NCBI GenBank assembly: GCA_030390025.1
Contig: CM059449.1
Coordinates: forward strand, 15,686,001 to 15,750,000
Source of the DNA: Squalus acanthias
Lineage: Eukaryota
Length of the DNA: 64,000 bases
Direction: 5' to 3'
Program-made: the position numbers and the translations under genes
Shown: positions 1,640 through 64,000 of the stretch, piece after piece
Layout: every line of letters starts with the position of its first letter
Position numbering within the stretch: position 1 is the stretch's first letter
The notes under the pieces: model-generated
Told to the model about the DNA's origin: nothing
What the model saw: the letters and a program-made list of their open reading frames with translations, nothing else
Databases searched by the model: none

Positions 1640-3870
1640 CGAATCATAAAATGACACAGCACAGAAAGCCATTCGACCCATTGTACCTGTGCCGGCTCTT
1701 TGATAGAGCTATCCAATTAGTCCCACTGCCCCGCTCTTTCCCCATCGTCCTGTATTTTTCCCCTTCAAGTGTTTATCCAATTCTCTTTTGAAGGTTACTG
1801 CATTTCAGACAGTGCATTCCAGAGCACAACAACTCGCGGTGAATAAAGAGTTTCCTCATGTCACCTCTGGTTCTTTTGCCAATCAACTAAACTCTGTGTC
1901 CTCTGGTTACCGACCCTTCTGCCACTGGAAACAATGTATCCTTATTTACTCTATCAAAACCCTTCATGATCTTAAACACCTCGATCAAATCTCCTCTTTA
2001 AATTCTCTGCTCTGCGAAGAACACGCCCAGCTTCTCCAGTCTGTCCACATAACTGAAGTCACTCAATGGTAACATTCTAGTAAATCTCTTCTGCACCCTC
2101 TCTCAGGTCTTGACATCCTTCTTAAAGTGGGGTGCCCAGAATTGAACACAACTCTCTAGCTGAGCCATAACCAGTGTTTTATAAAGGTTCAGCATACCTT
2201 CCTTGCTTTTGTAATCTTTGCCTCTATTAATAAAGCCAACGATTCTATAAGACTTGTTAACACCCTTCTCAACTTGTTCCGCCATCTTCAATGATTTATG
2301 TACATACAACCGCAGGTCTTTCTGTTCCTGCACTCCCTTTAAAATGTTATCATTTTGTTTATATTGCCTCTCCTCATCCTTCCTACCAAAATGTATCCCT
2401 TCACGCTTCTCTGCGTTAAATTTCATCTGCCATGTGTCCGCCCATTTCACCAGTCTGTCTATGTCCTCCTGAAGTTTCCTGCTCATTCTTTACTTCATTT
2501 CCGATTTTTTTTTCATCTGCAACCTTTGAAATGATGCCCTGTATACCCAAGTTCAGGTCATGAATATATATCAAAAGCAGGGTTCCCAATACTGACCGCT
2601 GGGGAGCACCACTGTACACTTCACTCCAGTCTGAAAAACCACCGTTCACGACGACTCTCTGCTTGCTGTCCCTTAACCAATTTCATTGCCACTGTCCCTT
2701 TAATCCCATGGTCTTTAATTTTGCTAACAAGTCTATTATGTGAGACTTTGTCAAACGACTTTTGAAAGTCGATATATAAAACATCAACCACACTACCCTC
2801 ATCAACCCTTTCCATTACTTCATCAAAGAATTCAATCCAGTTAGCAAATCACGATTTTTCTTCAACAATACCGTGCTGACTTTCATTTATGAGCCCACAC
2901 TTTTCCAAATGCCAGTAAATTTTGTCACGGATAATTGTCTCTCAAAGTTTCACCACAACCCACATTCGGCTGACTGGCCTGTAGTTGCCGGGTGTATTCT
3001 TCTACCATTTTTTAAACAAGTGTGTAACATCTGCAATCCTCTAGTCCTCTGGCACTACCCCCATTTCTAAGGAGGATTGGAAGATTGTGGCCAAAGCCTG
3101 TGTAATTTCCGCCCATACGTTCCTCTGCAACCTAAGATGCATCCCATCCGGACCGGGTAAGCTTTCTACTTTGAGGACTGCCTAACTCCTCTTAAAATAT
3201 TTGTATCCTAAATATATCGCCACTACCTCCTCCTTTACTGCTACATTGGCAGCATCCTCTTCTCTAGTGAAGACAGATAAAAAGTATTCATTTAGTACCT
3301 CAGCCATGCCTCTGTCGGAGCAAGAATTACATAGGATTACATCGGCACAGAAACAGGGCTTTCGGCCCAAGCAGTCCATACCGGTGTTTATGATCCACTC
3401 GAGCCTCCTCCCGTCTTTCCTCATCTAAATCTATCAGAATAACCCTCTATTTCCTTGTCCCTCATGTTTGTCCAGCCTCCCCTTAAATGCATCTATACTA
3501 TTCGCTTCAACCACTCCCTGTGGTAGCGAGCTCCACATTCTCACCAGTCTTTGGGTAAAGAAACTTCTTCTAAATTCCCTATTGGATTTCTTGGTGCCTT
3601 TCGTATATTGATGGCGAAAATTGCCTTTTTGGTCCCTAATCTGTCCGATCCTTCCTTTGACTACCCTTTTACTATTTATATGTTTATAAAAGACTTTTGG
3701 CTTCCCTTTATGTTGCCGCTCATCTATTCTCATACTCTCTCTTTGCCCCTCTTATTCCCTTTTATAGATCTCCTCTGTACTTCCTGTATCCATCCTGCTT
3801 CTCGACTGTATTATGAACCTTACGTTTGTCATAAGCCTCCTTTTTCTGTCTCAACTCTGAACTCGGTCAC
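1640..3870 (-). mobile_element. Degenerate CR1 LINE ORF2 (RT) with 3' tail
   Basis: ORF fragments are typical of CR1 RT and its C-terminus: VDVLYIDFQKSFDKVSH, SGAPQRSVLGTLL, LQEDIDRLVKWADTWQMKFN, QLESCVQFWAPH. Multiple frameshifts and deletions. Confidence 0.9.
3325..3620 (-). mobile_element. CR1 3' fragment nested inside the older CR1
   Basis: FRRSFFTQRLVRMWSSLPQGVVEANSIDAFKGRLDK plus 3'UTR and tail interrupts the host ORF between IRDQKG and MAEVLNEYF. Same subfamily as 48232-48685. Confidence 0.8.
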
Positions 3871-4553: not shown

Positions 4554-5400
4554 GGTCAGAATTTTGCCAGCTGTGTTTTATTCAGTTTTAATAGATTCGT
4601 TGATCTTCGAATTTTTCACAAATTTTCCTTCATTTCGTTCTGTGGTGAACTTTGTAATGGCCCAAAAATTCATCCCGGTGCGCGAGAGTACGCACTGCGT
4701 ACTCTCGCGTATTCCCTCTGCAATTGCCGGTTTTCTGCATGCCCTGCGCATGCGCTGAAAACCGGCAATTGCTCTTTTGAAAAGGGGGTGGTTCCTCGGT
4801 GAATCGCGTGCGCGCTACAGGCTGCGCGCACGCTGTGCACTTCATGCTTTGGACGCGCAGGTAAGTACTGAAGATTTTAGAAATGTAAAAAGGAGGAGTA
4901 AGACCCACTTTTAACAAGGTAAGTAGTGAATTAAGTATTTTTTTGAATTTTTTTTTACAGGTATATCTATTTTAGAGACTTTAAAGACAGGTAAGTTTAT
5001 TTTTATAACTTTTTAAAAGATTTAAAAAAAATTCAAAAATTGAATTTTTTATTTAAAATGGTTAATTTATTTAACTATACTTATTTTATTAATGTGATGG
5101 TTTTTTTTTTATTTAATTGAGGTTTAGCTGTTATTTTGGGGGGGTGTCAGATTCATAGATTTCACAGCACGTCTGTGAAACTTATGAATGGAAGATGGCG
5201 TGCTGCCATTGGCTCTAACTGAGTCATGTGATCCCACAGCTCGCACGAATTCACTACGCCGGTGGGATACGCAAGCACTGCCCGGCTGATGTCTGGAACA
5301 TCAAGTTCCTGCGAGCTGGATCTGAAAAAGCACAAGCGAGGTGAGAGATCGCGGGGAAGGCTTACCCCCGCGGGAACAGAGCGAGATCAATTTCTGGGCC
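4554..5400. mobile_element. ~850-bp non-autonomous DNA transposon (possibly PIF/Harbinger-type)
   Basis: Imperfect TIRs (ggtcagaattt / aatttctgggcc) and internal hairpins (4681-4709, 4722-4770). A close copy lies in opposite orientation at 63399-64000 with different flanks. The superfamily is inferred from TIR style only. Confidence 0.7.
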
Positions 5401-5944
5401 AATATGTTTAATTACTTTAACATAAACAGAATGAAAACATATTTAAACCATATGCAACAGTGAAGAAGAAAACAACATAAAATATGGGACCTGCATTTGG
5501 AAGGGACTGCAATGAGGAATTCGGTATAAACAGCTCCACAAGTGTAAAGTGTAAAGATTCTGCTTTTTCACATGACTCCTGCAAACTATCTAATCCATCA
5601 AATCTGTTTCGGGGTGATTGCAAAGATGTCTCTGGCAATGTTGGTCAAGCATAAAATCTGTAAATAACAGTTTGTTAAAAGTTTCAATGATGATTCAATT
5701 AATTGATAAAACATAATCTGATTAATCTGCTTGCTAGAAAAATGGTATCTTGATCACAGATTGCACACCGTGTCTTACTATCACAGATAGCATCCCATTA
5801 ATCGTAAGATATTATTGATTTAGGCCCTATTTTATCTTTTGAATATGCCAAAGAAATCATCAATAGATCAGAAACAGCACTGATCTCCCACAGAAATATA
5901 GACCGACTGGTAAAATGGGCAGTCTGATTTTTGGATGCCCCCAG

Positions 5945-7237: not shown

Positions 7238-7827
7238 ACAAAAGCAAAATACTGCGTATGCTGGAAATCTGAAATAAAAACAAACAATGCTGGGAATACC
7301 CAGCAGGTCAGGCAGCACCTGTGGAGATAGAAACAGAGTTAACGTTTGAGGTCGATAGTACTCCGTCAGAACTGGAAAAAGCTGGAGATGTAACAGGTTT
7401 TTAAGCAAGTGTAGGGGCAGGGAGAGCGGAGAGGGGAGGAAAGAACAAAAGGGACTTTCTGTGATAGGATGGAAGGCAGGAGAGATTAAGAGACAAAAGA
7501 GATGATGGAGCAATGCCAAAGGAGATGGTAATTGGACAAGTTAAGAAACAAAATATGATTCTAGATGAAGTGTAAATGGCACTGACTGAATGATCGATGT
7601 GAGAGAGAATTTTTTTTTTTAAAAGATAGGGCCAGAGGTTATGGTCTGAAATTGTTGATCTCGATGTTGAGTGCATCGGGTTGTAAAGTACCTGATTGAA
7701 AGATGAGGTGCTGTTCCTCGGGATTACGTTGTGCTTCATTTGAACAGTGTAAGAGGCCGAGGACGGAGAGGTCAGAGTGTGAGTGGAGCGGAGAATTAAA
7801 GTGACAGGCGACTGGAAGCTTGGGGTC
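7238..7827 (-). mobile_element. Penelope-like retroelement, 3' part of GIY-YIG endonuclease plus terminal repeat (continues at 16142-16260)
   Basis: Minus-strand translation gives PKLPVACHFNSPLHSHSDLSVLGLLHCSNEAQRNPEEQHLIFQSGTLQPDALNIEINNFRP*. It is followed by a terminal repeat with a decayed hammerhead at 7337-7373. Confidence 0.85.
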
Positions 7828-8348
7828 TGTCGAAGTTTCGACTTCCGATTCAAGACTCTTGTAAACAATATCGTCAAAGAAGGCTTTTTATTATATTTTA
7901 CTTGCAAGGAGACTGCAACCATAGCCCAATTAGCTATGATGACAGACTGCCGAATCACAGAAAATGGAGTATTCTTATACAGTATAATATCACATGACAT
8001 GTTGTTTAAGGTAAGCTAAGTTAACAATTAGAAAAAACACGTTAGAAATGCCTTACAATGAGACTAGCTAATCTCTATAAAATGGAGTCTCTCTATTTTA
8101 CTTCTCTCACCAAGGCCAAGGCGCCTGGTTTGTTTACTTTACTAGCCCTTGGTTATCTCAATATTAAGCCTGTTTTCTTTTGTGCAGGCAGACTTTTGCT
8201 GACAGCATAGTCTAAGACTTTAAAGTTATTTTCAGAAAAGAACATAACAATGGATTTTTTCCCTTTTCCACACAAGTCAGAGTCGGCCATTTTATTAGTT
8301 TAAATTCAAGGAAACCATTTTGTCCGAGACAGAAACTGCACTTCCACA
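7828..8348 (-). repeat. 3' LTR
   Basis: tgtcgaag...cttccaca, directly preceded on the - strand by the PPT. It differs from the other LTR at about 5 positions by eye. Confidence 0.95.
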
Positions 8349-8362
8349 TTCCCCCCTTTTTT
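8349..8362 (-). promoter_or_regulatory. Polypurine tract
   Basis: The - strand reads AAAAAAGGGGGGAA immediately before the TG of the LTR, the classic gamma/epsilon-retroviral PPT form. Confidence 0.9.
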
Positions 8363-9181
8363 GTCCTTCTAGGACAAAATAGCTCAATTTAACTTTTTCG
8401 GTCTTTTTTGTCGGTTCCTGTACCAAATTTGGATTTTGGCCAGGGATGCCAACTTCTTTTCTGTTTTAACCATCCTCGGGATTATACCTGTACTGATGGC
8501 TGACCTTATTTAAGATCGTCCTTCTTCTCTGCCTAGTCTCGGTGTTTGGGCGTATGTTCTTGTAGGGGTTTTAGTTGTGTTTTGGTGACTGTGGCGTACT
8601 TTTGTGGTTCATTAGTCTGCTGTTCTCTAACTTTTCCTGCAGCTTTTACTAGCCTGCAGTTCAGGTGTTGCTATACACCCTCTAAGGAGATAGGGTACAG
8701 CAGCTCATAGAGGAGTTCTAAGTCATGGCCCACACAGTTTATGCCTAACCAGTAGGGTTCTCCTAGGGAACTGCAGCTTATAGAGGAGGACTGATTCATG
8801 ACCCACACAGTTTATGCCTAACCTGTGGGGTTCTCCTAAGCACAAGTGCTTCTACATGAGCCTCCAGAGTGCGGACCAAGTGATATACAAGGTCGACGTC
8901 ACCGGTAGTTGAAAGGAGTCCTCTCTCTTTCCCTAGCCTGCAGGTCCCATTGATGGCTGGAAGAATGTTTACCAAAAGTGGGGAGCATGCAAAAATGTAT
9001 ATATATCTATATGTATATTTTGTCTAGGTTGTCTAATCCTCAAAATTGTATTTTATTCAATCGCCTCAGTTCCTCCCCGAAGGGACCATACTTTTCTTCT
9101 TCATCATTTGTTTCTTTCTGTATCATTATACTTACTTCAGGTATGACTACCTTGCCTAACCTATCAAATCTTTTAATCATC

Positions 9182-9777
9182 TTAAACACCTCGATCAGGG
9201 TTTACGTTTTTGTGGAAAACGGTAAAACCCATCTGATTGTCAGTATTCAATCGTTTAGTCCCATTCCATGGTCTGTTGTTAGTCAAATTCATCAAACCGG
9301 TAGTATTGAACCACCAGCTTTCCATGGAACTTCCTGCCTTGTACGTAATAAACTTTTGTATGCAACGACTTTTCCCCATATTAACTCTGTTCCCTTTAGT
9401 CTGTCCTAGATTTTCTAACGAATATCCTCCCCCCTTAAACTCGTTTCTTAGGCTAGACCACTTTTGTTCCAATTCTTTCCCGAAGGTGGATAGGGTGGTA
9501 TCTTTCTGTTTCGTATGATTTTTATTAATTATCCATTCTGCCATATCTGTGAGGTTCAAGGGTATCGGTCGCAGAAGTATTCCTCTTTTCACATGGGTAG
9601 GAATATGGCTACATACCCAACAGGCGTTTATCCCACTTTTTTTTTGGCATACTTATATGACATATACAAAAAGGTGTTCATATGTAATTCTCGTTTCTTT
9701 CGGGGTTCTTTTCCTCTCCCTTGGCAGGCTATACATATCAGTCCGATTAGTAGGTAAAACGTAAATAACAGCTTCAT
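9182..9777 (-). pseudogene. env: Gamma-type env SU remnant (signal peptide plus CWVC motif), frameshifted and internally deleted
   Basis: ATG at 9777 begins MKLLFTFYLLIGLICIACQG... A frameshift in the A9 run (9637-9645) leads to SGINACWVCSHIPTH...LRPIPLNLT (CWVC at 9611-9622). It starts just after the integrase stop. No CX6CC/TM subunit was found. Confidence 0.8.
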
Positions 9778-9802
9778 TGTTTAAGTCTTTTCAAATTCAA
9801 AT

Positions 9803-10543
9803 TCAACTGTCCTTATCTGATACTTTCTTGCAATGGGATGCGTGGATTATAGTAGGTCTTTCCTTGACCTTTACAGCTGTATTTGTTGTCAAGAGTACTT
9901 GATATGGCCCTTCAAAGCGTGGCTGCAGACCGTTCTTCCTCTTATAGACCTTTACGTAGACGTCATCTCCTGGTTCCAAGTTATGGCACTTTCCTTCGGC
10001 CGGTTCCGTTTGAGCTTCCTTTACCTGTTGGTGAAAGCTGGAAATACATCTAGTTAATGCAATGCAATAGTTTAGCATACTTTCATCCATTTTATGAATG
10101 TCCATTTGTTTAACCGTAAAGGGTGCTGAGAATGGCAGCCTTTGGGGTCGTCCCATAACAATCTCATGTGGCGACAGTCCAGTTGTCCTGTTAGTTGCTG
10201 CTCGCATTACCATCAATGCTAAGGGTAACAGTTCAACCCATTTTAGTCCAGTTTCATTACAAAGTTTAGAAAGTTTATTCTTCAGCATTCCGTTATATCT
10301 TTCTACTAGTCCCGCAGATTGCAGATGATAACTGCAGTGGAAATGCTGATTAATCTGCAAAGCTTTACATAGTTCCTTTATGATCATTCCAGTAAAATGT
10401 GATCCGTTGTCGCATGAAAGTTGCATAGGTATTCCATACCTTGGTATGATTTCTTTTAACAAACACTTTGCAACTGTTACAGCATCATTCTTTTTACATG
10501 GAAAAGCTTCAACCCATCTTGAAAACATATCTATGATTACCAT
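9803..10543 (-). CDS. pol: Retroviral integrase, N-terminally truncated (core plus GPY/F C-terminal domain)
   Basis: 246-aa open frame: [53 protein letters not shown]. An in-frame stop lies 5 codons upstream, so the HHCC finger and first catalytic Asp are missing. Confidence 0.9.
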
Positions 10544-11039
10544 TGTGTAAGTCCTTCAAAATTTAATTTTTTTTCTCTCTGTCTATTACCCCCCCCACCC
10601 TGTGTTGTTTTGCATTTTACGATTCCCTTATCACTTCTATTTGTCTTTTGATGCTTGATATTCGACCTTGCTGGCATTTCTGCTATCTATTCCTGGCTGC
10701 ATGTTGTCAGTTTCTGTTCTAAGAATTAAAACCCATCTTTGAATCTAACAGCTATTTCTTACAATTCCCTTCTTTGAGAAGGAAATAACCCTTATTGACT
10801 TCTCACAATCGGCTCTTGACTAATCTAGCTTCTTATTGCTCTCTCTCAACTTGGGCATTAGTTAGTAGGGAGTCTTGAAGATTTCTCCCTTCTAATAGTC
10901 CATTCCGGTGTTCCAATTCTGCCCCGCCTCGGGTATCCTCTGTTTCTTCTATCTTTCCTGATGTTACCCCGCCTGGGGTCTCCTCTACATTGCTTCGGAT
11001 CTTCTCTTTCGGTGTGCTCAATTTGTTAGTGCTGGTTAG

Positions 11040-11915
11040 TCATGGGCATGAGTACCCAATTGCTCTTGTGTATCTTACTACATAGGTTACATATATCAAA
11101 TACACTATCATTACAAGTTGGAGAACTACCAGAGCGTGTGAAATAATACAAATCTAAGTGTGTGCTGATATATTAAGCCCAATTATCCCACCAGTGTGAG
11201 TTGTCCCCTATACTGTCAATTTCAATATCTATTCCCGAGTTGTCTTCCTTCAGAACATAAAAATGCTTTAGGGAGGAGTTCAGTCGCATCATGAGCGCCA
11301 GAGACCCGGGTTCGAATCTGACCTCAGGTGACTGTCTGTGTGGAGTTTGCACATTCTCCCCGTGTCTGCGTGGGTTTCCTCCGGGTGCTCCGGTTTCCTC
11401 CCACAGTCCAAAAATGTGCGGGTTAGGTTGATTTGGCTATGATAAATTGACCCTTAGTGTTAGGGGGGGATTAAATATGTGGGGTTATGGGGATAGGATG
11501 GGATATGTTAGGGGGAATTAAATACGTGGGGTTACGGGGGTAGGGTGGGATATGTGTACTGTGGGGATTAAAGCAGGGACAGGGTACTGGAATTGGATGA
11601 TCAGCCATGATCGTATTGAATGGTGGAGCAGGCTCGACGGGCCGAATGGCCTACTCCTGCTCCTGGATTCTATGTTTCTATGTTTCTATGAGCTCACTGA
11701 TAACTTTAGACAACAGGGGAATGTCGTATCCGAATTATGCCACATAATTGTGCAGCTCATACTTAAGTACCTCATTTACTGTCAGTTTCACTTGAGCATA
11801 GGTTTCGATATTATGTAAAATGTGTTGGTTAGCGGGACAGGTCCTGTTAGACCCGTAATGCATGGTAGTTGCGGTAGTAGTGACACAGGAGGCACTACCA
11901 AAACCACCTCATACT
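11040..11915 (-). pseudogene. Second envelope/fusion-protein relic (heptad, Trp-rich region, TM), putatively lokiretrovirus/F-type Env
   Basis: With the SINE removed it reads GGFGSASCVTTTATTMHYGSNRTCP...VLKYELHNYVA*FGYDIPLLSKVISELMMRLNSSLKHFYVLKEDNSGIDIEIDSIGDNSHWWDNW / GLNISAHT*ICIISHALVVLQLVMIVYLIYVTYVVRYTR. The frame is restored exactly across the SINE TSD. The family is assigned from recalled similarity, not a search. Confidence 0.6.
11297..11687 (+). mobile_element. V-SINE (HE1-like) with CR1-derived tail, 5'-truncated
   Basis: B box ggttcgaatc, V-domain tgtgtggagtttgcacattctccccgtgtctgcgtgggtttcctccgggtgctccggtttcctcccacagtccaaa, and tail ggccgaatggcctactcctgctcc...(tatgtttc)n. TSD ATGAGC at 11291-11296 and 11688-11693. 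Confidence 0.9.
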
Positions 11916-13779
11916 GGATTCGCACTGGTTTTTCCCACGCTCTGTTACCTACAAAACACAATTATTACAGTCACAGTTCAATTCAGTCTTACAATTTCAA
12001 GCAACATTACAGTTTAACATGTAATCAACAAATCATGTACTTAAAAGATTCTCCAGATCTCTTTTTTACTCGTATCCATCTTGTGGATAATTCTTGTTAA
12101 ACATGATTTCTCCTTAGCCCTCAATTGTCCCAATCCAGATTCCATGTAACTCTCCACTTCAACTTCAATTTCAATCCTTCTAACAGGTACCAGTGTGTTT
12201 AACTCTATTCTGATTGTTTCATTAATTAGATAGTTTCTCGATGGAGTATGTGTCAATGCTTTAAAAGTTGTCTCGCTCTCCAGAGCCACATTAACCATTT
12301 CATGTCTTGCTGTTGTCAAGTAACTGAGCATGTCTGAGACCCGTTCTTCAGTGCAAATTCAACATACATTTCCAGATGGTAATCGCTTCATACGTAACAA
12401 ATCACATTTGCACACTCATACCGGTATCTCAATATCGTGCCACATGTGCCCCTCTCGCGCTCCCAGGCATCTTATCAAAACATTGTCTTTGTTCATCTTC
12501 CTCTGCATGGTCCCGATATCTTGGATAGTGGCCAGGCTATCAAATTCAGTTTTCTTAAAAGTTCATTATAGGCAGGGACACAAATGTCTCCAAGAGAAAG
12601 CTATCAATTTACTATTCTTAGCTACACTTTCCTGACTTTCACTAACAAGTTTTTTTTTAAATTCCCATTCAGCTGTGTAATTTCTCCTGTTTCTATCTTA
12701 CACATCCCATTAATTACCATTCATATCTCATTCATGAGCCCTGGAGTAACTTTACTGTCCAGTATAATATTTAAGATTGAAAACATAGATCAAACATTCT
12801 CACTAGGTCCAAGTTACTAACACTTTTTATTTATCATTATTTTAGAGGATCTTTTATTTTCCCAAAAGTAACCCAATAGATAGTGCCTGAGTCCATTTTG
12901 TTATTACAAAATTATCCCAAAATCCAAACAGCAGTACTGTTGAACTGATAGGTTTTGTCAATGTTCAATTTCATTTCTATCAATTTATCCTCCATTTCCA
13001 ATTTCAGAAACAAGTGATTCCCAGGCTAGGTGGCTTGCACAGTGTTTTAACATTAGAGACAGAAGTGCTGCAATTAGTTTACAAGGTAACTTCCATATAA
13101 CAAAAGAAAGAAGAGACTCCATTGTGACTCTACTTAGAGCCCAAGGGGTTAATTTATCAAATCATAATTTTCCTTCTGTCACTGTGGGGAAATATTAAGT
13201 TAAAATTAAGAAACTTATATTTAATAATGTCCAATATCTTTAAATTTCATACTAAAGTTGTTGCTCGATGAACTTAATCAGCTGTCAGTGGAAAGGGTTA
13301 ACTCCTTTGCAGGTTTTTTTAAGAAGGTGGAGCAAAACATTATCAGGCGCACGCAATTGCGTCACTTCACGTAAATTAAAAAAAACTTTCCCGATCCAAA
13401 AAAGCAGTTGTGTTTTCACACTTTAAATAAACACGAACAGAACAGATAAAACAAAACAAAATAGCACATGCTTGCAGAACTAGTAAATTACATCATATTT
13501 CTTATTGTCCTTTCTTCAGATGTCTTTCCAAAATACTATAACTATAAATTAGTTTTTCACATTTAAGCAAATCAAATCAAATTGCTTTGGAAGATTTCAC
13601 CATAGCAACCGCGACTCCAAGGTTAAATCTTAGACCGAAACTTGTTATTTTGTTAAACAAACTTTTTTTGTTGTTCTTCTCAGTTTTTACACACCAGCTT
13701 AACTTAAATTGTAATTCAAATTAGTTTTTTTTTCTAATTCTTGGGGCACTTTCCCTGCAAAGTCTGATATAAAATTCCT

Positions 13780-13900
13780 GTCTATCCCTGACAGTAAAGG
13801 CGAATTTCCTTGTGATTCATCTGCCAATGGGATGGACCAGAACCCGTTCTGTATCCAAGACTGTAAATATTTCAAAATCTGGTTTCAGACCATTAAATAT
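13780..13900 (-). pseudogene. Reverse transcriptase fragment with foamy/loki-like NGFW signature
   Basis: IFNGLKPDFEIFTVLD / NGFWSIPLADESQ / KFAFTVRDRQ, with two frameshifts. It corresponds to the RT motif A region. Confidence 0.7.
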
Positions 13901-14559
13901 CTTATTCAATGCGGTCTACACAAATTTACACCAACCAGAATTTCACCGTGCACAATGAATGTCTGGTTTTTAATAGGTTAATTAACCTCAATAATTCCAA
14001 TTAAATCCAGATCAATTTTTTTTTAAAACTAACCAGTATCAGTTGGAAAAGAAACCATAGTCACATTTAACAAATAAACAATTACCATGCCTTGTAAACA
14101 TTAAAATTAATTTTCTTTCCAGGCACATTGGCAACTGTGACTTCAAGGCTGAAACTTATACCTCTTTTGTAAAACAATTAACAAACTTAAAACAACAACG
14201 CTTGAGTATCATTCAAGACAAGTCTTCAAAGAGTTAAAAAACAGCTTTTAGCTCTCTGTACAAAAGAGTGGGTGGAGCTAAAACATAAACAAAATGATTA
14301 ACACCCTTTTTTTTAGGCAGAATTTTTTTTCTCAGGGACAAAATAACACTGCAACTTAACAAACTTAAACATTCACACAATCAGGAATCTTTTACACTTT
14401 TCACACACACTTTCACACAACTGAGATCCCAGTATTCCTTTTAAGATTCCTTTAACTCAACAAATCTTGTATATTAGCTTTTATCTCGGCACAGACACTA
14501 ATAACTTCCATGCCGGTAAAACTTTTCTCAGCAGCTTTTCCTGGCTTTCCAAATCCCTT

Positions 14560-14850
14560 TTTTTTTGCTTTGAGTTTCAGATTTCAATTCTGGTCCGTCG
14601 GTGTTGCGGAAGCTGCTTGCTCCATTAAGAGGGAAACTTTATTCTTTTGGTCCCTATTTGTCTAACTTCATTTTGTTTAGCCAATTTACTCACGGGGTCT
14701 TTTCTCTTATTTTTAATGTCAGATCTACTGGTTTGTATACTACGGTCCTTACGCCTTTCTGCTTCCTTTTTCCAGTCTGAAAAGGCTGACCAATTTACTG
14801 ACTTTTTTTTGTGGGTCTCTATTTGCGAGACAGTCCTCTAGACATGTAAT
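14560..14850 (-). pseudogene. Possible gag (matrix) remnants
   Basis: Fragments SVNWSAFSDWKKEAERRK and IKFPLNG lie at the expected position downstream of the leader. Frameshifted. Confidence 0.35.
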
Positions 14851-15596
14851 TCTTCTATTCTTAGTAAAGTTTTAATTATACTAGGCACTCTTCTTCTTCT
14901 AAATCGCAAGTTTTACCCTTTACCCCCTTACGATTATTTTTGACCATCCAATTCTATTACAAGACGATAACAAGAACTAACAACAATCAAGACAATTATA
15001 AGTAATGCAAAAAAAGCCCAAATAGGCAAACAAATCAAATAATTAAACATTTAACCTTATACTTTAAACTAAACAAATAGTCAATTCTCAGTTTTGCATT
15101 GTTCTTCATTACAAACTGAGTCCTTAACATTTAACTAATACTCTATACTCTGCCGTGAGATTCTCAATAGTCAATTCTCAGTTATCTTTTCATGGCTCAA
15201 GGGCCCCACCCTTGATACTGCAGTTTTATGTCCTGGTACCTTTTATACTGCAGCTTTCGCTGCTCAAGGGCAAGGGACCCACCCTTGAGACTGCAGTTTT
15301 AATCCGGGATACAACCCTGTCGACTTTTTCCCTTGCCTTCTTTGCCCGACAGTATTTTTTTAAATTTCCTTCCCTTTTTTTTTCCAATTTGTCTAAATCA
15401 AAAGCTACAAGATTCAACTCAAATCTAAACAAAAGTCTTAACAATCGCAGTGTACCTGTTGGAAGAAACAGACATACACCATTCAGGATCTAATGAGAAA
15501 TCCCTTTTTTTAGTGATAAAAAATCACTGTGGCCATAGGATTTGTCACTAGAAATTCATGATGCCTTGTCCGTGACTTACCGAAAGATAGCAAGTG

Positions 15597-15614
15597 ATCT
15601 CGGTGGGACCTCCA
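15597..15614 (-). promoter_or_regulatory. Primer binding site, tRNA-Gln
   Basis: The - strand TGGAGGTCCCACCGAGAT is the 18-nt complement of the vertebrate tRNA-Gln(UUG) 3' end ATCTCGGTGGGACCTCCA. It lies 6 nt from the LTR, and a splice donor cgGTAAGT follows at ~15575-15582. Confidence 0.9.
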
Positions 15615-15620
15615 AGAAAC

Positions 15621-16141
15621 TGTCGAAGTTTCGACTTCCGATTCAAGACTCTTGTAAACAATATCGTCAAAGAAGGCTTTTTATTATATTTTACTTGCAA
15701 GGAGACTGCAACCATAGCCTAATTAGCTATGATGACAGACTGCCGAATCACAGAAAATGGAGTATTCTTATACAGTATAATATCACATGACATGTTGTTT
15801 AAGGTAAGCTAAGTTAACAATTAGAAAAAACACATTAGAAATGCCTTACAATGAGACTAGCTAATCTCTATAAAATGGAGTCTATCTATTTTACTTCTCT
15901 CACCAAGGCCAAGGCGCCTGGTTTGTTTACTTTACTAGCCCTTGGTTATCTCAATATTAAGCCTGTTTTCTTTTGTGCAGGCAGACTTTTGCTGACAGCA
16001 TAGTCTAAGACTTTAAAGTTATTTTCAGAAAAGAACATAACAATGGATTTTTTCCCTTTTCCACACAAGTCAGAGTCGGCCATTTTATTAGTTTAAATTC
16101 AAGGAAACCATTTTGTCCGAGACAAAAACTGCTCTTCCACA
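15621..16141 (-). repeat. 5' LTR
   Basis: 521-bp direct repeat of 7828-8348, adjacent to the PBS. Confidence 0.95.
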
Positions 16142-16260
16142 GGTCCCCCTTACGGACTGAGCGGAGGTGTCCCGCAAAGCGGTCACCCAATTTGCGTTTG
16201 GTCTCCCCAATGCAGAGGAGATCGCATCATGAGCAGCAAATACAGTATACATCAAACCAG
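16142..16260 (-). mobile_element. Penelope-like GIY-YIG fragment, 5' part, split off by the ERV insertion
   Basis: VYCICCS*CDLLCIGETKRKLGDRFAGHLRSVRKGD joins in frame to PKLPVACHFN at the 7824-7827 TSD once the provirus and one GGTC copy are removed. Confidence 0.85.
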
Positions 16261-45785: not shown

Positions 45786-46744
45786 TTGATTTATTCCCAA
45801 TCCTTTTATTTCGGTGTTCTGAAGTGATAATAAGATGAAAAATAGCCGATATATTGAGAATGTAACGAAGCAATTTAAAAAAACGCCATAAGTGTGTTAG
45901 AATATAAAGCCATGATAGTGTCAGAGAACTAAACTAAGCTTCTAAATGCACGGGTCAACTATTGTTAAAATCCTACTTTCAGCTTTCCTATCGATGACAC
46001 AAAATATATCTGGACTGGAAAGGGTGCATTGAGGAGCAACAAAACCCTTCCGAAGTGTAAAGAGATGATACGTGAGGAGAGGTAAGCGAAGCATAAGTGT
46101 TTCAGTCTTACAATAAGGCAGTTAAGTGCCGGGGGCGGCGGGGGGTGGGTGTGGGGGGGGGGGGGAACTTAATCATAAATGCTATAGATAAAGTGCATCC
46201 CGATTATTCCATCGAAGCCATGAAAGTAGAATCAGATCCATCAATGGGTAATAGTGAAAAGGGACATTTTAAGCTAAAAGCAAGAACAACGTGTTTGTCT
46301 CAAAACTTGTAGGAATTTATACAGCGCGCAATAGAGGTAAATATTGGGGCTACTCAAAATGCAATTAAATGCCGTGGCGGGAGTTCGTGTATCTAATGGT
46401 TGATTTTGATGGGTTGAGGGACATTTTCTCGTCACAGGCTTTTTAAGTGCCTTTTGAGCAATGTTTTATTGCACCAACTAACAACACGGGCTATATACAG
46501 TCAATGTCACTGTATTAATATCCGTGTTTTTCTAAATATATTTGAACAATGTATCCTTAAAAATTGCCATTCGGCAGAGTGGCGGCGCGCACGCCTCGCT
46601 CAACTGTAACAATACTGATAATTTTTAAAGGTTTAAGGACTCTTTTAAACGCTGCGAGCATTCATGCCGAATATAGGAAGCAGTACTTTCCAGGGCAAAA
46701 GATCTCACCCCACTGTGTATTGTATTGACTTCAACCATCTACAG

Positions 46745-47086
46745 CAGTTACTGTTGGAAAAATCACCGTAATTCAGAGCCCGCAATCACTCACCAAAACC
46801 GCGGGACAGACAGCGGACCTGCTCTGCAGATATGAGGGTCCCAAAGGAATCGGCAGCTGCACGTGGCACCGAGGCACCAAACAGGGAAATGAAGTTTCCA
46901 ACAATACAGCGGAATACAGAGGCAGGGTGTTCGGGGCAAGTGAAGAGCAATTCAGCCAGAGGGGAGACGCGTCCATTAGAATAATCCAGCTGAAACCGGG
47001 AGATACCGGGCTCTATTTTTGCAAACTGGAGCTCTTGGGATTCGCTGCAGCAGACGGACCCGGGACAGCAGTGACCGTGGAACGGG
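46745..47086 (+). CDS. NCR3: NKp30/NCR3-like exon 2 (VJ-type Ig V domain)
   Basis: Acceptor ctacag|cag (NAGNAG; alternative start 46748). AVTVGKITVIQSPQSLTKTAGQTADLLCRYEGPKGIGSCTWHRGTKQGNEVSNNTAEYRGRVFGASEEQFSQRGDASIRIIQLKPGDTGLYFCKLELLGFAAADGPGTAVTVER, donor G|gtaagt. It parallels human NKp30 (IGSVTWFR, GKEVRNGTPEFRGR, YVCRVEVLG, GNGTRLVVE). Confidence 0.92.
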
Positions 47087-47272
47087 GTAAGTTTGTATTT
47101 TTTTTGAAAAGTAGACGGGTTCTTTTAAGTGCGAGAGGTGTGCCCTGCCAGGTTACCACCCAGGATGGTAACGGCGAACTTCCAGCCCGGAGGACGTCTT
47201 AGCCCCCTTGCGTTACTCGTTGCCTTGGACCAGAAAGCGATAGGGAGATTTTTTAGACCTGTTATTCCATAG

Positions 47273-62212: not shown

Positions 62213-63398
62213 TATCGGCTCAAGAACATGGACCGGGAGATCTGACTGCAACCTAATTTTATTCTTCTCACATTTTACATGCATTCACTTAGTTCCAAGT
62301 CGTTTTCCTACCTATCCTTATATAAATGATGACAAATCTTCCAGCCCATACATATTTTAATCGATTTGTTCCATCCAGTGTTAATCCCGCTCTATATTGT
62401 TAAAGAAAAATATGGTGTGCTAAATTTGGGCATACTTCTGCTACGGGCCCTGGCGATGCTTAGGTGTGCCGAGCTTTGAGACGTCCTGCCAAGTAATCAT
62501 TTCTCGGGGAGCTGGTTCTGCCGATCGTCTACCGTGACTTCGCTGGAAGTTCGGCAGAACACCGCTTTATCTATTCCGCGCTTCTTCTGAGTTCCGCCTA
62601 TCTTCCGCTCACGTTACCAGAGGAGAGCGGGAGAACCCCGCAGAAGTCGTTTCGCCCGCCCCCTTTGAGTTTAACATAAAACATTAATTTTAATAAAAGT
62701 TACAACGGAAAATCAACAGAACAACCGGACATGATTCAACTGAGAAGAACTTTTATTCCGAAAATGTCAAATACTTTACAGGATTATGATGAAATGTAAG
62801 GAGTTATGTGATGAAACTAGGCTGAGTGAACAGCAACGAGTATGAACGCTCAACATGTTGGTTTTCATTTTAACAGCGGCATGAACCTGTTTATTTTCTA
62901 GGATAACACGCTCCTAAACATAGGGGACTGATACATGTCATACAAATGTGATAAATGTTCACAACTAACACTAAAGATTCTAATGTTAAAGCATTGGAGA
63001 TTCCAAGACCTTGTTACTGAATTATGTGAGGATAAACCTCACTCACTAAGTTAGAGGACAAAACATTCGCCTGGAAATTCCCATGGAGGGTTCTCTGATC
63101 ATCCGCCGTTGAAGATCCAACAGAACCCCCGAGCATCCGCCCAAGTTACGGCGGGAGATCGGGACAACTCTGCGGAAATTCCACCACTTGTCCATCGGGG
63201 GAGCGGGGGGGGGGGCGCGTCTCATCATTGGGGTGGAATATATCGGCTCCGCTTACTTCACCGAAGCGTACAACACCGCTTCTCGCTTCACACAGCGCTC
63301 AGTTTGATTGCTGTCCTGAATATTCAGCGTGACGTATTGGAACTTCTCATCTCCCTCTCTCTATTGAGATGAAAGGGTTTCAGTATTGAATAAAATAT

Positions 63399-64000
63399 TG
63401 GCCCAGAAATTGATCTCGCTCTGTTCCCGCGGGGGTAAGGCTTTCCCGCGATCTCTCACCTCGCTTGTGCTTTTTCAGATCCAGCTCGCACGAACTTCAT
63501 GTTCTAGAGATCAGCTGGGCAGTGCTTGCGTATCCCAGCGGCGTAGTGAATTCGTGCGAGCTGTGGGATCACGTGACTCAGTTAGAGCCAATGGCAGCAC
63601 ACCATCTCCATTCATAAGTTTCACAGCAGGGCAGTGAAATCTATGAATCTTACACCCCCCCAAAATAACAGCTAAACCTCAATTAAATTTTAAAAAAAAC
63701 CATCACATTAATAAAATAAGTATAGTTAATTAAATTAACCATTTTAAATAAAAAATTAAATTTTTGAAAAAATTTAAAATCTTTTAAAAAGTTATAAAAA
63801 TAAACTTACCTGTCTTTAAAGTCTCTAAAAAAGATATACCTGTTAAAAAAAATTCAAAAAAATACTTAATTCACTACTTACCTTCTTAAAAGTGGGTCTT
63901 ACTCCTTTTTACATTTCCAAAATCTTCCGTACTTACCTGCGCGTCCAAAGCATGAAGTGCACAGCGTGCGCGCAGCCTGTAGCGCGCACGCGATGCACCG
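63399..64000. mobile_element. Second copy of the 4554-5400 transposon, inverted, running off the window end
   Basis: Reverse complement of ~4797-5400 with scattered substitutions. The flanks diverge right after ccaatat. Confidence 0.85.

What the first reader, a model, noticed from the sequence alone, without database searches (positions are those of the whole stretch)
7828..16141. Chimeric ERV: class I backbone carrying RT and envelope relics of a second (foamy/lokiretrovirus-like) lineage, giving two unrelated env types in one provirus
Seen: between one LTR pair the - strand order is PBS(Gln), possible gag bits, an RT fragment (TVLD..NGFWSIPL..ES..KFAFT, 13780-13900), a fusion-protein-like C-terminus (Cys motif, heptad helix, WWDNW, ~25-aa TM; 11040-11915), then integrase (9803-10543) and a second env with signal peptide and CWVC (9182-9777). 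Known: CxxC SU, the GPY/F integrase tail, a 4-bp TSD and this PPT typify gamma/epsilon (class I) retroviruses, whose RT motif A reads D/NAFF. NGFW is the foamy-type reading (LDLANGFW), and lokiretroviruses carry Env related to Mononegavirales F proteins. Inference: an env lying upstream of integrase is out of order, so this genome probably captured pieces of another retroviral lineage by template switching.
Basis: partly seen in the sequence, partly recalled or inferred. Interest (0 to 1): 0.8.

Follow-up and report, generated by a model that had tools for sequence, protein, structure and literature searches.

The report
Patchwork defective shark retrovirus, two lineages
This is a young but gutted retrovirus insertion, probably in a shark, whose ends come from one virus lineage while its middle holds long-dead polymerase and probably envelope remnants of a distant second lineage, a record of gene swapping between fish retroviruses rather than a virus with two working envelopes.

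Summary
The provirus is real: 521-nt LTRs with 5 mismatches, a 4-bp target duplication, a Gln PBS and a PPT. LTR ends, PBS and integrase are class I epsilon-like. Env2 is the start of a gamma-type SU with no TM subunit. The RT relic is real (0 of 1000 shuffles) and not class I (0 of 23 class I relatives share its diagnostic residues). It matches the SnRV-like class III elephant-shark CmiERV lineage I, not lokiretroviruses. The upstream 'env1' has a Trp-Trp plus TM end (2 of 3000 shuffles) resembling Ovex1/GGLTR11 Env by eye, but no database homolog. F-like fold is unproven. Env1 and gag are heavily decayed while integrase is open and the LTRs are 99% identical, so the mosaic was assembled stepwise and copied as a helper-dependent element. 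It never had two working envelopes. Class I/III recombination is known in the opposite polarity. Verdict: new variant of a known kind, moderate interest.

The parts
16142..16145 (-). 5' copy of 4-bp target-site duplication (GACC)
15621..16141 (-). 5' LTR, 521 nt, TG...CA; first 8 and last 7 bases equal those of epsilon-like CmiERV scaffold 324
15597..15614 (-). Primer binding site, tRNA-Gln, 6 nt after the LTR
   Evidence: CmiERV scaffold 324 has the same PBS with one difference
15456..15580 (-). Splice-donor-like site after the PBS (15580) and acceptor-like site (15456); seen by eye, untested
14960..15035 (-). T-rich hydrophobic open stretch in frame with the gag-like relic (glyco-Gag-like leader, label recalled; may only reflect T-richness)
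   Evidence: KD 3.13
14600..14950 (-). Probable class I matrix (gag) relic, decayed (5 stops in 70 codons), motif-level support only
   Evidence: no hit
13760..13880 (-). RT motif-A relic of an SnRV-like class III retrovirus, broken by frame changes
11040..13182 (-). Probable env1 relic: acceptor-like site 13182, ATG 13122 with weakly hydrophobic stretch, 105-codon open stretch 12041-12358, Cys cluster near 12011, Trp-Trp plus TM at 11190-11075; heavily decayed
   Evidence: no database homolog
11293..11690 (+). Host SINE inserted into env1, GCTCAT on both sides; tail shared with LINE 3' ends elsewhere in the window (V-SINE/HE1 name recalled)
10570..11039 (-). Unassigned A-rich stretch: possible long cytoplasmic tail or 3' region of the env1 donor, ending in a G-run
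   Evidence: (68-codon open stretch not significant)
9803..10555 (-). Class I (epsilon-like) integrase core and C-terminal domain, open frame, N-terminal part and first catalytic Asp absent
9182..9777 (-). Env2: signal peptide and first part of a gamma-type SU (CWVC), one frame break, no TM subunit
9161..9197 (-). 37-nt LINE-like scrap at the point where SU stops; 86% identical to window 1951-1987
8691..8838 (-). 73-nt tandem duplication in the 3' untranslated region
8349..8370 (-). Polypurine tract (A-run, G-run, AA before the LTR)
7828..8348 (-). 3' LTR
7824..7827 (-). 3' copy of the target-site duplication

Best explanation
A non-autonomous, helper-dependent endogenous retrovirus built in steps by template switching between co-packaged RNAs. 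SHOWN: the cis signals (LTR ends, Gln PBS, 4-bp TSD) and the integrase are class I epsilon-like; about 4 kb of class I gag-pol (capsid to integrase N-terminus) is missing; its place is taken by a block of about 4 kb holding an SnRV-like class III RT relic followed by a decayed membrane-protein gene; the block and the gag relic were dead long before this copy integrated. INFERRED: step 1, an epsilon-like genome switched onto a (probably already deleted) SnRV-like RNA after matrix and picked up RT relic plus env1; step 2, this coding-dead element was copied on its cis signals alone and decayed; step 3, a later switch onto a younger epsilon-like helper RNA added integrase core, the start of a gamma-type SU and probably the 3' end; SU was cut off at a LINE scrap; step 4, a class I helper supplied RT and integrase for this insertion. 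No viral protein here can work: RT is about 40 codons, integrase lacks an active-site Asp, neither env is complete.
For: LTR, TSD, PBS, PPT. Same LTR ends, Gln PBS, donor site and integrase type in epsilon-like CmiERV scaffold 324; different LTR ends, PBS and PPT in SnRV-like scaffold 2 (by eye). Class III XtERV-S relatives leave 5-bp TSDs (PMC8278194). Integrase is sister to a sawshark protein (100/99) inside a 98/98 clade of fish, amphibian and turtle class I pols (47 rows, 4 short hits dropped, no outgroup). RT relic. All 23 class I relatives with the motif have A and F where the relic has G and W, and 0 of 21 readable ones have K before F-x-F. Replacement rather than insertion: homology starts at Gag-Pol residue 1387 of 1723 in P0020; no inner LTR pair among repeated 13-mers. 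Age contrast: minimum breaks 0 in 750 nt (IN), 1 in 593 (SU), 17 in 1424 (env1, shuffle mean 19); 5 stops in 70 gag-like codons against 0 in 250 IN codons, Fisher p=4.5e-4; 0.5% decay predicts 0.07 stops per 100 codons.
Against: Only one copy was seen, so order and timing of steps are inferred. The class III call rests on about 40 degraded codons compared by eye with published sequences; no RT tree was built. Single diagnostic residues do occur in class I rows of PMC2717909 Fig S8 (GGLTR11 has the W, HERV-H the G). Env1 has no database homolog, and the Env family it resembles also occurs with class I pol (GGLTR11) and alpha-type gag (TERV), so env1 need not come from the RT donor. The gag relic got no support from tools. 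About 1.3 kb (14560-13900, 13740-13190) is unassigned. A weak DNA match between the block's two border zones (15 of 500 shuffles) leaves a decayed inner repeat not fully excluded.
Confidence: 0.65

Rival explanations
1. Only the RT scrap is foreign. Env1 is either the native non-gamma env of an older class I virus (as in GGLTR11) or a relic of some other membrane-protein gene, so the element is a class I/class I mosaic with a small class III capture.
For: GGLTR11 pairs class I pol with the Env family that env1 resembles. No homolog for env1. Only about 600 nt separate RT relic and env1, far less than a full pol would leave.
Against: RT relic and env1 lie in canonical order with an acceptor-like site between them. 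Ovex1, a class III SnRV/SpeV relative, has both KFAFT and this Env type. Trp-Trp plus TM arises in 2 of 3000 shuffles.
Confidence: 0.13
2. Nested insertion at the DNA level: an SnRV-like provirus integrated into a class I provirus, later deletions removed its LTRs and the flanking class I gag-pol, and the product was copied again.
For: The SINE with a short flanking duplication shows that DNA-level insertions into this element happen. A G-run near 10590 could be a worn PPT. Weak border similarity, 15 of 500 shuffles.
Against: No inner LTR pair; the border match runs into the integrase frame and has no protein-level support; the lineage I PBS is absent at up to 3 mismatches; it needs at least two precise deletions.
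Confidence: 0.12
3. One reading: a lokiretrovirus or foamy-like virus with a Mononegavirales F-like Env.
For: NGFW occurs in loki and foamy RT. Loki Env resembles Pfam PF00523 and foamy Env is structurally F-like. Foamy-like ERVs exist in elephant shark.
Against: Around NGFW the loki and foamy sequences differ from the relic (TMRV, KLAF, RCPFG in loki; AHPI, TAFT in foamy), whereas CmiERV lineage I matches both motifs fully. No WWD in the held part of the loki supplement (file cut when stored); the one loki Env read has no such end. The host groups listed for lokiretroviruses do not include cartilaginous fish.
Confidence: 0.07
4. No second lineage: the RT relic is a decayed class I RT and the env-like block is noise.
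For: Epsilon-like RTs share FTV-D, SIPL and FAFT with the relic; openness of env1 is like shuffled DNA.
Against: About five specific base changes would have to converge on the class III residues; rough odds 1e4 to 1e7 against (a sketch, motif chosen after the fact). The TM end is non-random.
Confidence: 0.03

Closest known systems
CmiERV lineage II, scaffold 324 (elephant shark, epsilon-like class I; PMC4422223)
   Same: LTR starts TGTGGAAG and ends TTCGACA, Gln PBS, donor site after the PBS, similar matrix motif and integrase (by eye).
   Different: It has a full class I gag-pol with an A-F-F type RT and one complete gamma-type env; no foreign block.
CmiERV lineage I, scaffold 2 (elephant shark, SnRV-like; PMC4422223)
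   Same: RT motifs NGFWSIPL and KFAFT; its gamma-type SU start shares two motifs with env2 (0 of 2000 shuffles each, patterns chosen after comparison).
   Different: Class III LTR, PBS, gag and pol with a single gamma-type env: the opposite polarity. No env1-like gene.
Ovex1 / GGLTR11 / TERV Env family (PMC2717909)
   Same: His-Trp-Trp-acid, Gly, then His and TM at similar spacing, preceded by a helix and a Cys-rich region; Ovex1 RT has KFAFT.
   Different: Resemblance is by eye only; Cys spacing matches loosely; these are bird elements with one env.
XtERV-S and ERV-SA.a-Ppe (class III pol with class I env; PMC8278194, bioRxiv 2021.11.23.469661)
   Same: Class I/class III recombination in anamniotes.
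   Different: Class III backbone with a clean env swap (XtERV-S has intact ORFs; 5-bp TSD in its related copies); here class I ends, 4-bp TSD, two env relics, coding-dead.
Harlequin HERV mosaic and KoRV-PhER recombinants (PMC10536682)
   Same: Defective multi-donor mosaics; KoRV-PhER is listed under env degradation and intragenomic spreading.
   Different: Harlequin is described among class I HERVs; neither is described there as holding two env types.
Lokiretroviruses (PMC7947760) and foamy viruses (PMC11468914)
   Same: NGFW in RT; non-gamma Env with C-terminal TM.
   Different: Flanking RT residues, integrase group and Env end differ.

Membership tests
Class I (gamma/epsilon-like) ERV | Integrase in the class I clade with GPY/F C-terminal domain | tested here: met
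   (tree has no non-class-I outgroup)
Class I (gamma/epsilon-like) ERV | RT in class I (the usual basis of classification) | tested here: not met
   The only RT relic has G/W/K where 23 of 23 relatives have A/F and none K; no class I RT remains
Class I (gamma/epsilon-like) ERV | 4-bp TSD (class rule recalled), Gln PBS and LTR ends like shark lineage II | tested here: met
Class I (gamma/epsilon-like) ERV | Class I Gag | tested here: inconclusive
   Motif match to CmiERV scaffold 324 matrix (0 of 2000 shuffles, pattern chosen after comparison); no tool hit
Gamma-type Env (env2) | CxxC motif near the SU N-terminus and similarity to a known gamma-type SU | tested here: met
   no Pfam or atlas support
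Gamma-type Env (env2) | TM subunit with ISD and CX6CC | tested here: not met
   absent from 8349-9802 in all three minus frames; gene is truncated
SnRV-like class III (inner block) | RT motif-A signature of SnRV/CmiERV lineage I/Ovex1/SpeV | tested here: met
   KFAFT in 6 of 28 rows of Fig S8 (Ovex1 x5, SpeV), NGFW in 3 of 28 (SnRV, FFV, HFV), both together in CmiERV lineage I
SnRV-like class III (inner block) | Phylogenetic placement of RT in the SnRV clade | not testable with these tools
   No class III reference protein could be retrieved into the session (empty); relic is about 40 codons
Lokiretrovirus | Loki-type RT | tested here: not met
   only NGFW and K-x-AF shared
Lokiretrovirus | Env with detectable similarity to PF00523 fusion glycoprotein | tested here: inconclusive
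   no Pfam hit on single, broken frames; sensitivity low
Lokiretrovirus | CGIN1-related integrase | tested here: not met
   the integrase present is class I; it need not come from the inner-block donor
Foamy-like ERV | Foamy RT signature; Lys, Asn or Thr PBS; GGGTG PPT:LTR junction | tested here: not met
   a GGGTG lies near 10598 inside the element but no LTR follows
F-like (paramyxo/pneumo/foamy-type) fusion protein | Shared fold with F | not tested
   no fold prediction was run: no alignment depth was available and the gene is broken across frames

The most novel reading that the evidence does not exclude
This locus is one copy of a widespread non-autonomous shark element that shuttled between epsilon-like and SnRV-like retroviruses. 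It would preserve an otherwise unsampled F-like Env of an SnRV-related shark virus next to the gamma-type SU family that SnRV-like CmiERV lineage I now carries, and so capture an intermediate of the F-like to gamma-type env replacement, with both env types in one packaged RNA.
Probability: 0.2. Interest if true: 0.68.

Novelty: new variant of a known kind. Interest (0 to 1): 0.45.

Why it matters
Env swaps between retrovirus classes are usually inferred from discordant trees of finished products. A single provirus holding relics of both parents, with class I cis signals around class III sequence, is direct evidence that epsilon-like and SnRV-like RNAs were co-packaged in cartilaginous fish and that class I machinery mobilised the product. 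It also warns that RT-based classification would file this element in the wrong class. If env1 proves to be a new non-gamma Env, it adds a sample to a poorly known envelope group. It is not a virus with two functional envelopes, which limits the surprise.

Tried and rejected
No result: Pfam on six frames of the interior and 18 sub-regions found only integrase domains. Word-seeded homolog searches for env1 and the RT relic (14 candidates, none at E<=10) were empty. Full phmmer of one env1 frame against 1.84e9 representatives was empty; only 1 of 3 frames was searched. PDB searches with RT-relic frames were empty. Atlas look-alikes gave nothing for the gag-like frame and only chance-level hits (0.84 or less) for SU; env1 has no atlas result. 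Rfam found nothing in the element. tBLASTn of 50 named hits against the gag region gave only noise; an HMM from 23 of them gave the RT relic only iE 3.6 without frameshift tolerance. Rejected: an integrase-like relic at 14119-14044 (weak DNA match; no protein support); a topology in which LTR, PBS and gag belong to the class III donor (LTR ends, PBS and TSD fit class I); lokiretrovirus as donor; chance origin of the RT motif. 20 of the 70 hits (unnamed or metagenome-labelled) were left out of all counts. Unchecked: the host genome (only the window was available), viral and metagenome contig collections (closed), supplements of the bioRxiv env survey (closed; they may hold this lineage). No fold prediction and no RT tree were run. 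The bacterial, phage and plasmid collections were not used as irrelevant.


Full report
Setting. The window is host DNA rich in LINE remnants (CR1/L2 labels recalled). The closest relative of the integrase is a sawshark protein, 86-87% identical over about 130 residues, so the host is probably a shark or ray (inference). The provirus splits a Penelope-like endonuclease remnant whose frame runs up to the 5' LTR and resumes after the 3' LTR (label recalled).

The provirus. LTRs at 15621-16141 and 7828-8348 differ at 5 of 521 positions and are flanked by GACC on both sides. With the two rates used in PMC4422223 this gives about 2 or 22 million years, a rough figure. The PBS equals the 18-nt tRNA-Gln3 site of PMC1592299; PMC3564811 labels the same 18-mer Thr. 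A purine tract precedes the 3' LTR.

The ends are class I. In the supplement of PMC4422223, the epsilon-like CmiERV scaffold 324 begins TGTGGAAG, ends TTCGACA, has a Gln PBS and a donor site right after it, as here. The SnRV-like scaffold 2 differs in LTR ends, PBS and PPT. Class III XtERV-S relatives leave 5-bp duplications. The integrase hits rve and MLVIN_C and nests with class I pols of fish, amphibians and turtles (47 rows, 4 short hits dropped, no outgroup). It begins 12-14 residues after the first catalytic Asp motif of its relatives, so it is truncated and dead. A matrix-like motif at 14600-14950 resembles scaffold 324, but Pfam, tBLASTn and the atlas gave no support.

The RT relic is real and foreign. 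A frameshift-tolerant profile from 13 class I RT segments scores 51.8 at 13760-13880, best in the window, null 24.1+/-2.6, 0 of 1000 shuffles. Of 60 Gag-Pol profile windows only the two covering this motif stand out (z 13.8 and 7.3; next 2.5). Of 50 named hits, 23 show the motif; all 23 have A and F where the relic has G and W, and none of 21 readable ones has the relic's K. In Fig S8 of PMC2717909, KFAFT occurs in 6 of 28 rows (Ovex1, SpeV) and NGFW in 3 of 28 (SnRV, two foamy viruses); none of the 9 rows I class as class I (my assignment) has either motif, though GGLTR11 has the W and HERV-H the G. CmiERV lineage I, which clusters with SnRV, has NGFWSIPL and KFAFT in full (translated by eye). 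Lokiretrovirus and foamy RTs share NGFW but differ around it. Database searches with the relic were empty and no RT tree was built, so the SnRV-like call is motif-based.

Env1 is probable, not proven. For: an acceptor-like site at 13182 and an ATG at 13122; a 105-codon open stretch (1.7% of shuffles); Trp-Trp followed by a TM segment (2 of 3000 shuffles; with the fuller His-Trp-Trp-acid pattern 0 of 3000, pattern chosen after the fact); by-eye likeness to the end of the Ovex1/GGLTR11/TERV Env. SnRV Env has a 136-residue tail, which could explain the stretch after the TM. Against: no hit in Pfam, in 1214 word-seeded candidates or in 1.84e9 representatives (the last two used one frame only); the Cys cluster is not significant; overall openness equals shuffled DNA; the signal peptide is weak (not among the windows with KD>=2.0). 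Nothing here tests an F-like fold. Loki Env resembles PF00523 and foamy Env is F-like, but the passages I saw say nothing on SnRV- or Ovex1-type Env. That Env family also travels with class I and alpha-type partners.

Env2 is a gamma-type SU stub. Two motifs match the SU start of CmiERV scaffold 2, whose env has an ISD and CX6CC (0 of 2000 shuffles each). It ends near 9200 at a 37-nt LINE-like scrap, with no ISD or CX6CC downstream. The same SU family thus sits beside a class I integrase here and beside class III pol in elephant shark, independent sign of exchange between these lineages.

Different ages. Minimum frame breaks: integrase 0 in 750 nt, SU 1 in 593, env1 17 in 1424 (shuffle mean 19.0). 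The gag-like frame has 5 stops in 70 codons against 0 in 250 for integrase (p=4.5e-4), while 0.5% decay since insertion predicts 0.07 per 100 codons. A truncated integrase has no reason to be kept open, so it was most likely added late, and env1 and gag were dead before this copy integrated (inference).

Mechanism. Class I sequence stops after matrix and resumes at Gag-Pol residue 1387 of 1723 in P0020: about 4 kb is replaced by about 4 kb (3.6 without the SINE). No inner LTR pair or lineage I PBS was found; one border match is marginal (15 of 500). Replacement at near-constant length fits template switching between co-packaged RNAs, the known route of env exchange. Shown: anatomy, lineage of ends and integrase, foreign RT motif, age contrast. 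Inferred: switching, order of steps, helper dependence, common origin of RT relic and env1.

What is known. Env/pol discordance is widespread in fish and amphibians, including class III pol with gamma-type env. Defective multi-donor mosaics are known in mammals. I found no report of a class I-ended provirus holding class III RT plus two env relics in 9 library searches (only 20, 41 and 64 aimed at this); subscription papers, Repbase and the closed supplements of the bioRxiv survey may hold it.

What I saw of each paper. PMC7947760: parts 1-2 of 4, supplement passages and part 11 of 82. PMC4422223: part 1 of 2 and supplement 1 whole. PMC2717909: passages, a supplement search, supplements 5 and 7. 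bioRxiv 2021.11.23.469661: parts 1-3 of 6. Passages only: PMC5210030, PMC13524379, PMC3564811, PMC1592299, PMC5512871, PMC13709493, PMC10536682, PMC11468914, PMC12193657, PMC8278194.

Verdict. A real two-lineage mosaic, SnRV-like rather than loki or foamy, coding-dead, from a single locus. New variant of a known kind; interest 0.45.

Noticed in passing
window 17300-43000: Tandem array of about 13 units of 1.97 kb, mostly 83-100% alike over the 300-nt reference copies, containing LINE 3'-end coding remnants.
   Followed up: no
window 46729-47202 (+): Open frame with an immunoglobulin V-type pattern, probably a host exon (label recalled).
   Followed up: no
window 16142-16226 and 7639-7827 (-): Penelope-like GIY-YIG remnant split by the provirus; confirms the insertion point (label recalled).
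   Followed up: partly
window 14960-15035 (-): Strongly hydrophobic open stretch in frame with the gag-like relic, like a glyco-Gag leader; CmiERV scaffold 324 also has a T-rich stretch before gag.
   Followed up: partly
window 15075-15300 (-): Short direct repeats in the leader (31 nt at 73-nt offset; 18 nt at 90-nt offset).
   Followed up: no
window 10586-10602 (-): G-run with GGGTG just upstream of the integrase junction; could be a worn PPT of the inner donor.
   Followed up: partly
P0005: The sawshark database protein is a gene model fusing an N-terminal part annotated PF04109 to the same integrase stretch, probably an annotation artefact over a related provirus.
   Followed up: no
window 4894-5408 and 63392-63906: Two 95%-complementary inverted copies of about 215 nt each, a recent dispersed repeat.
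   Followed up: no
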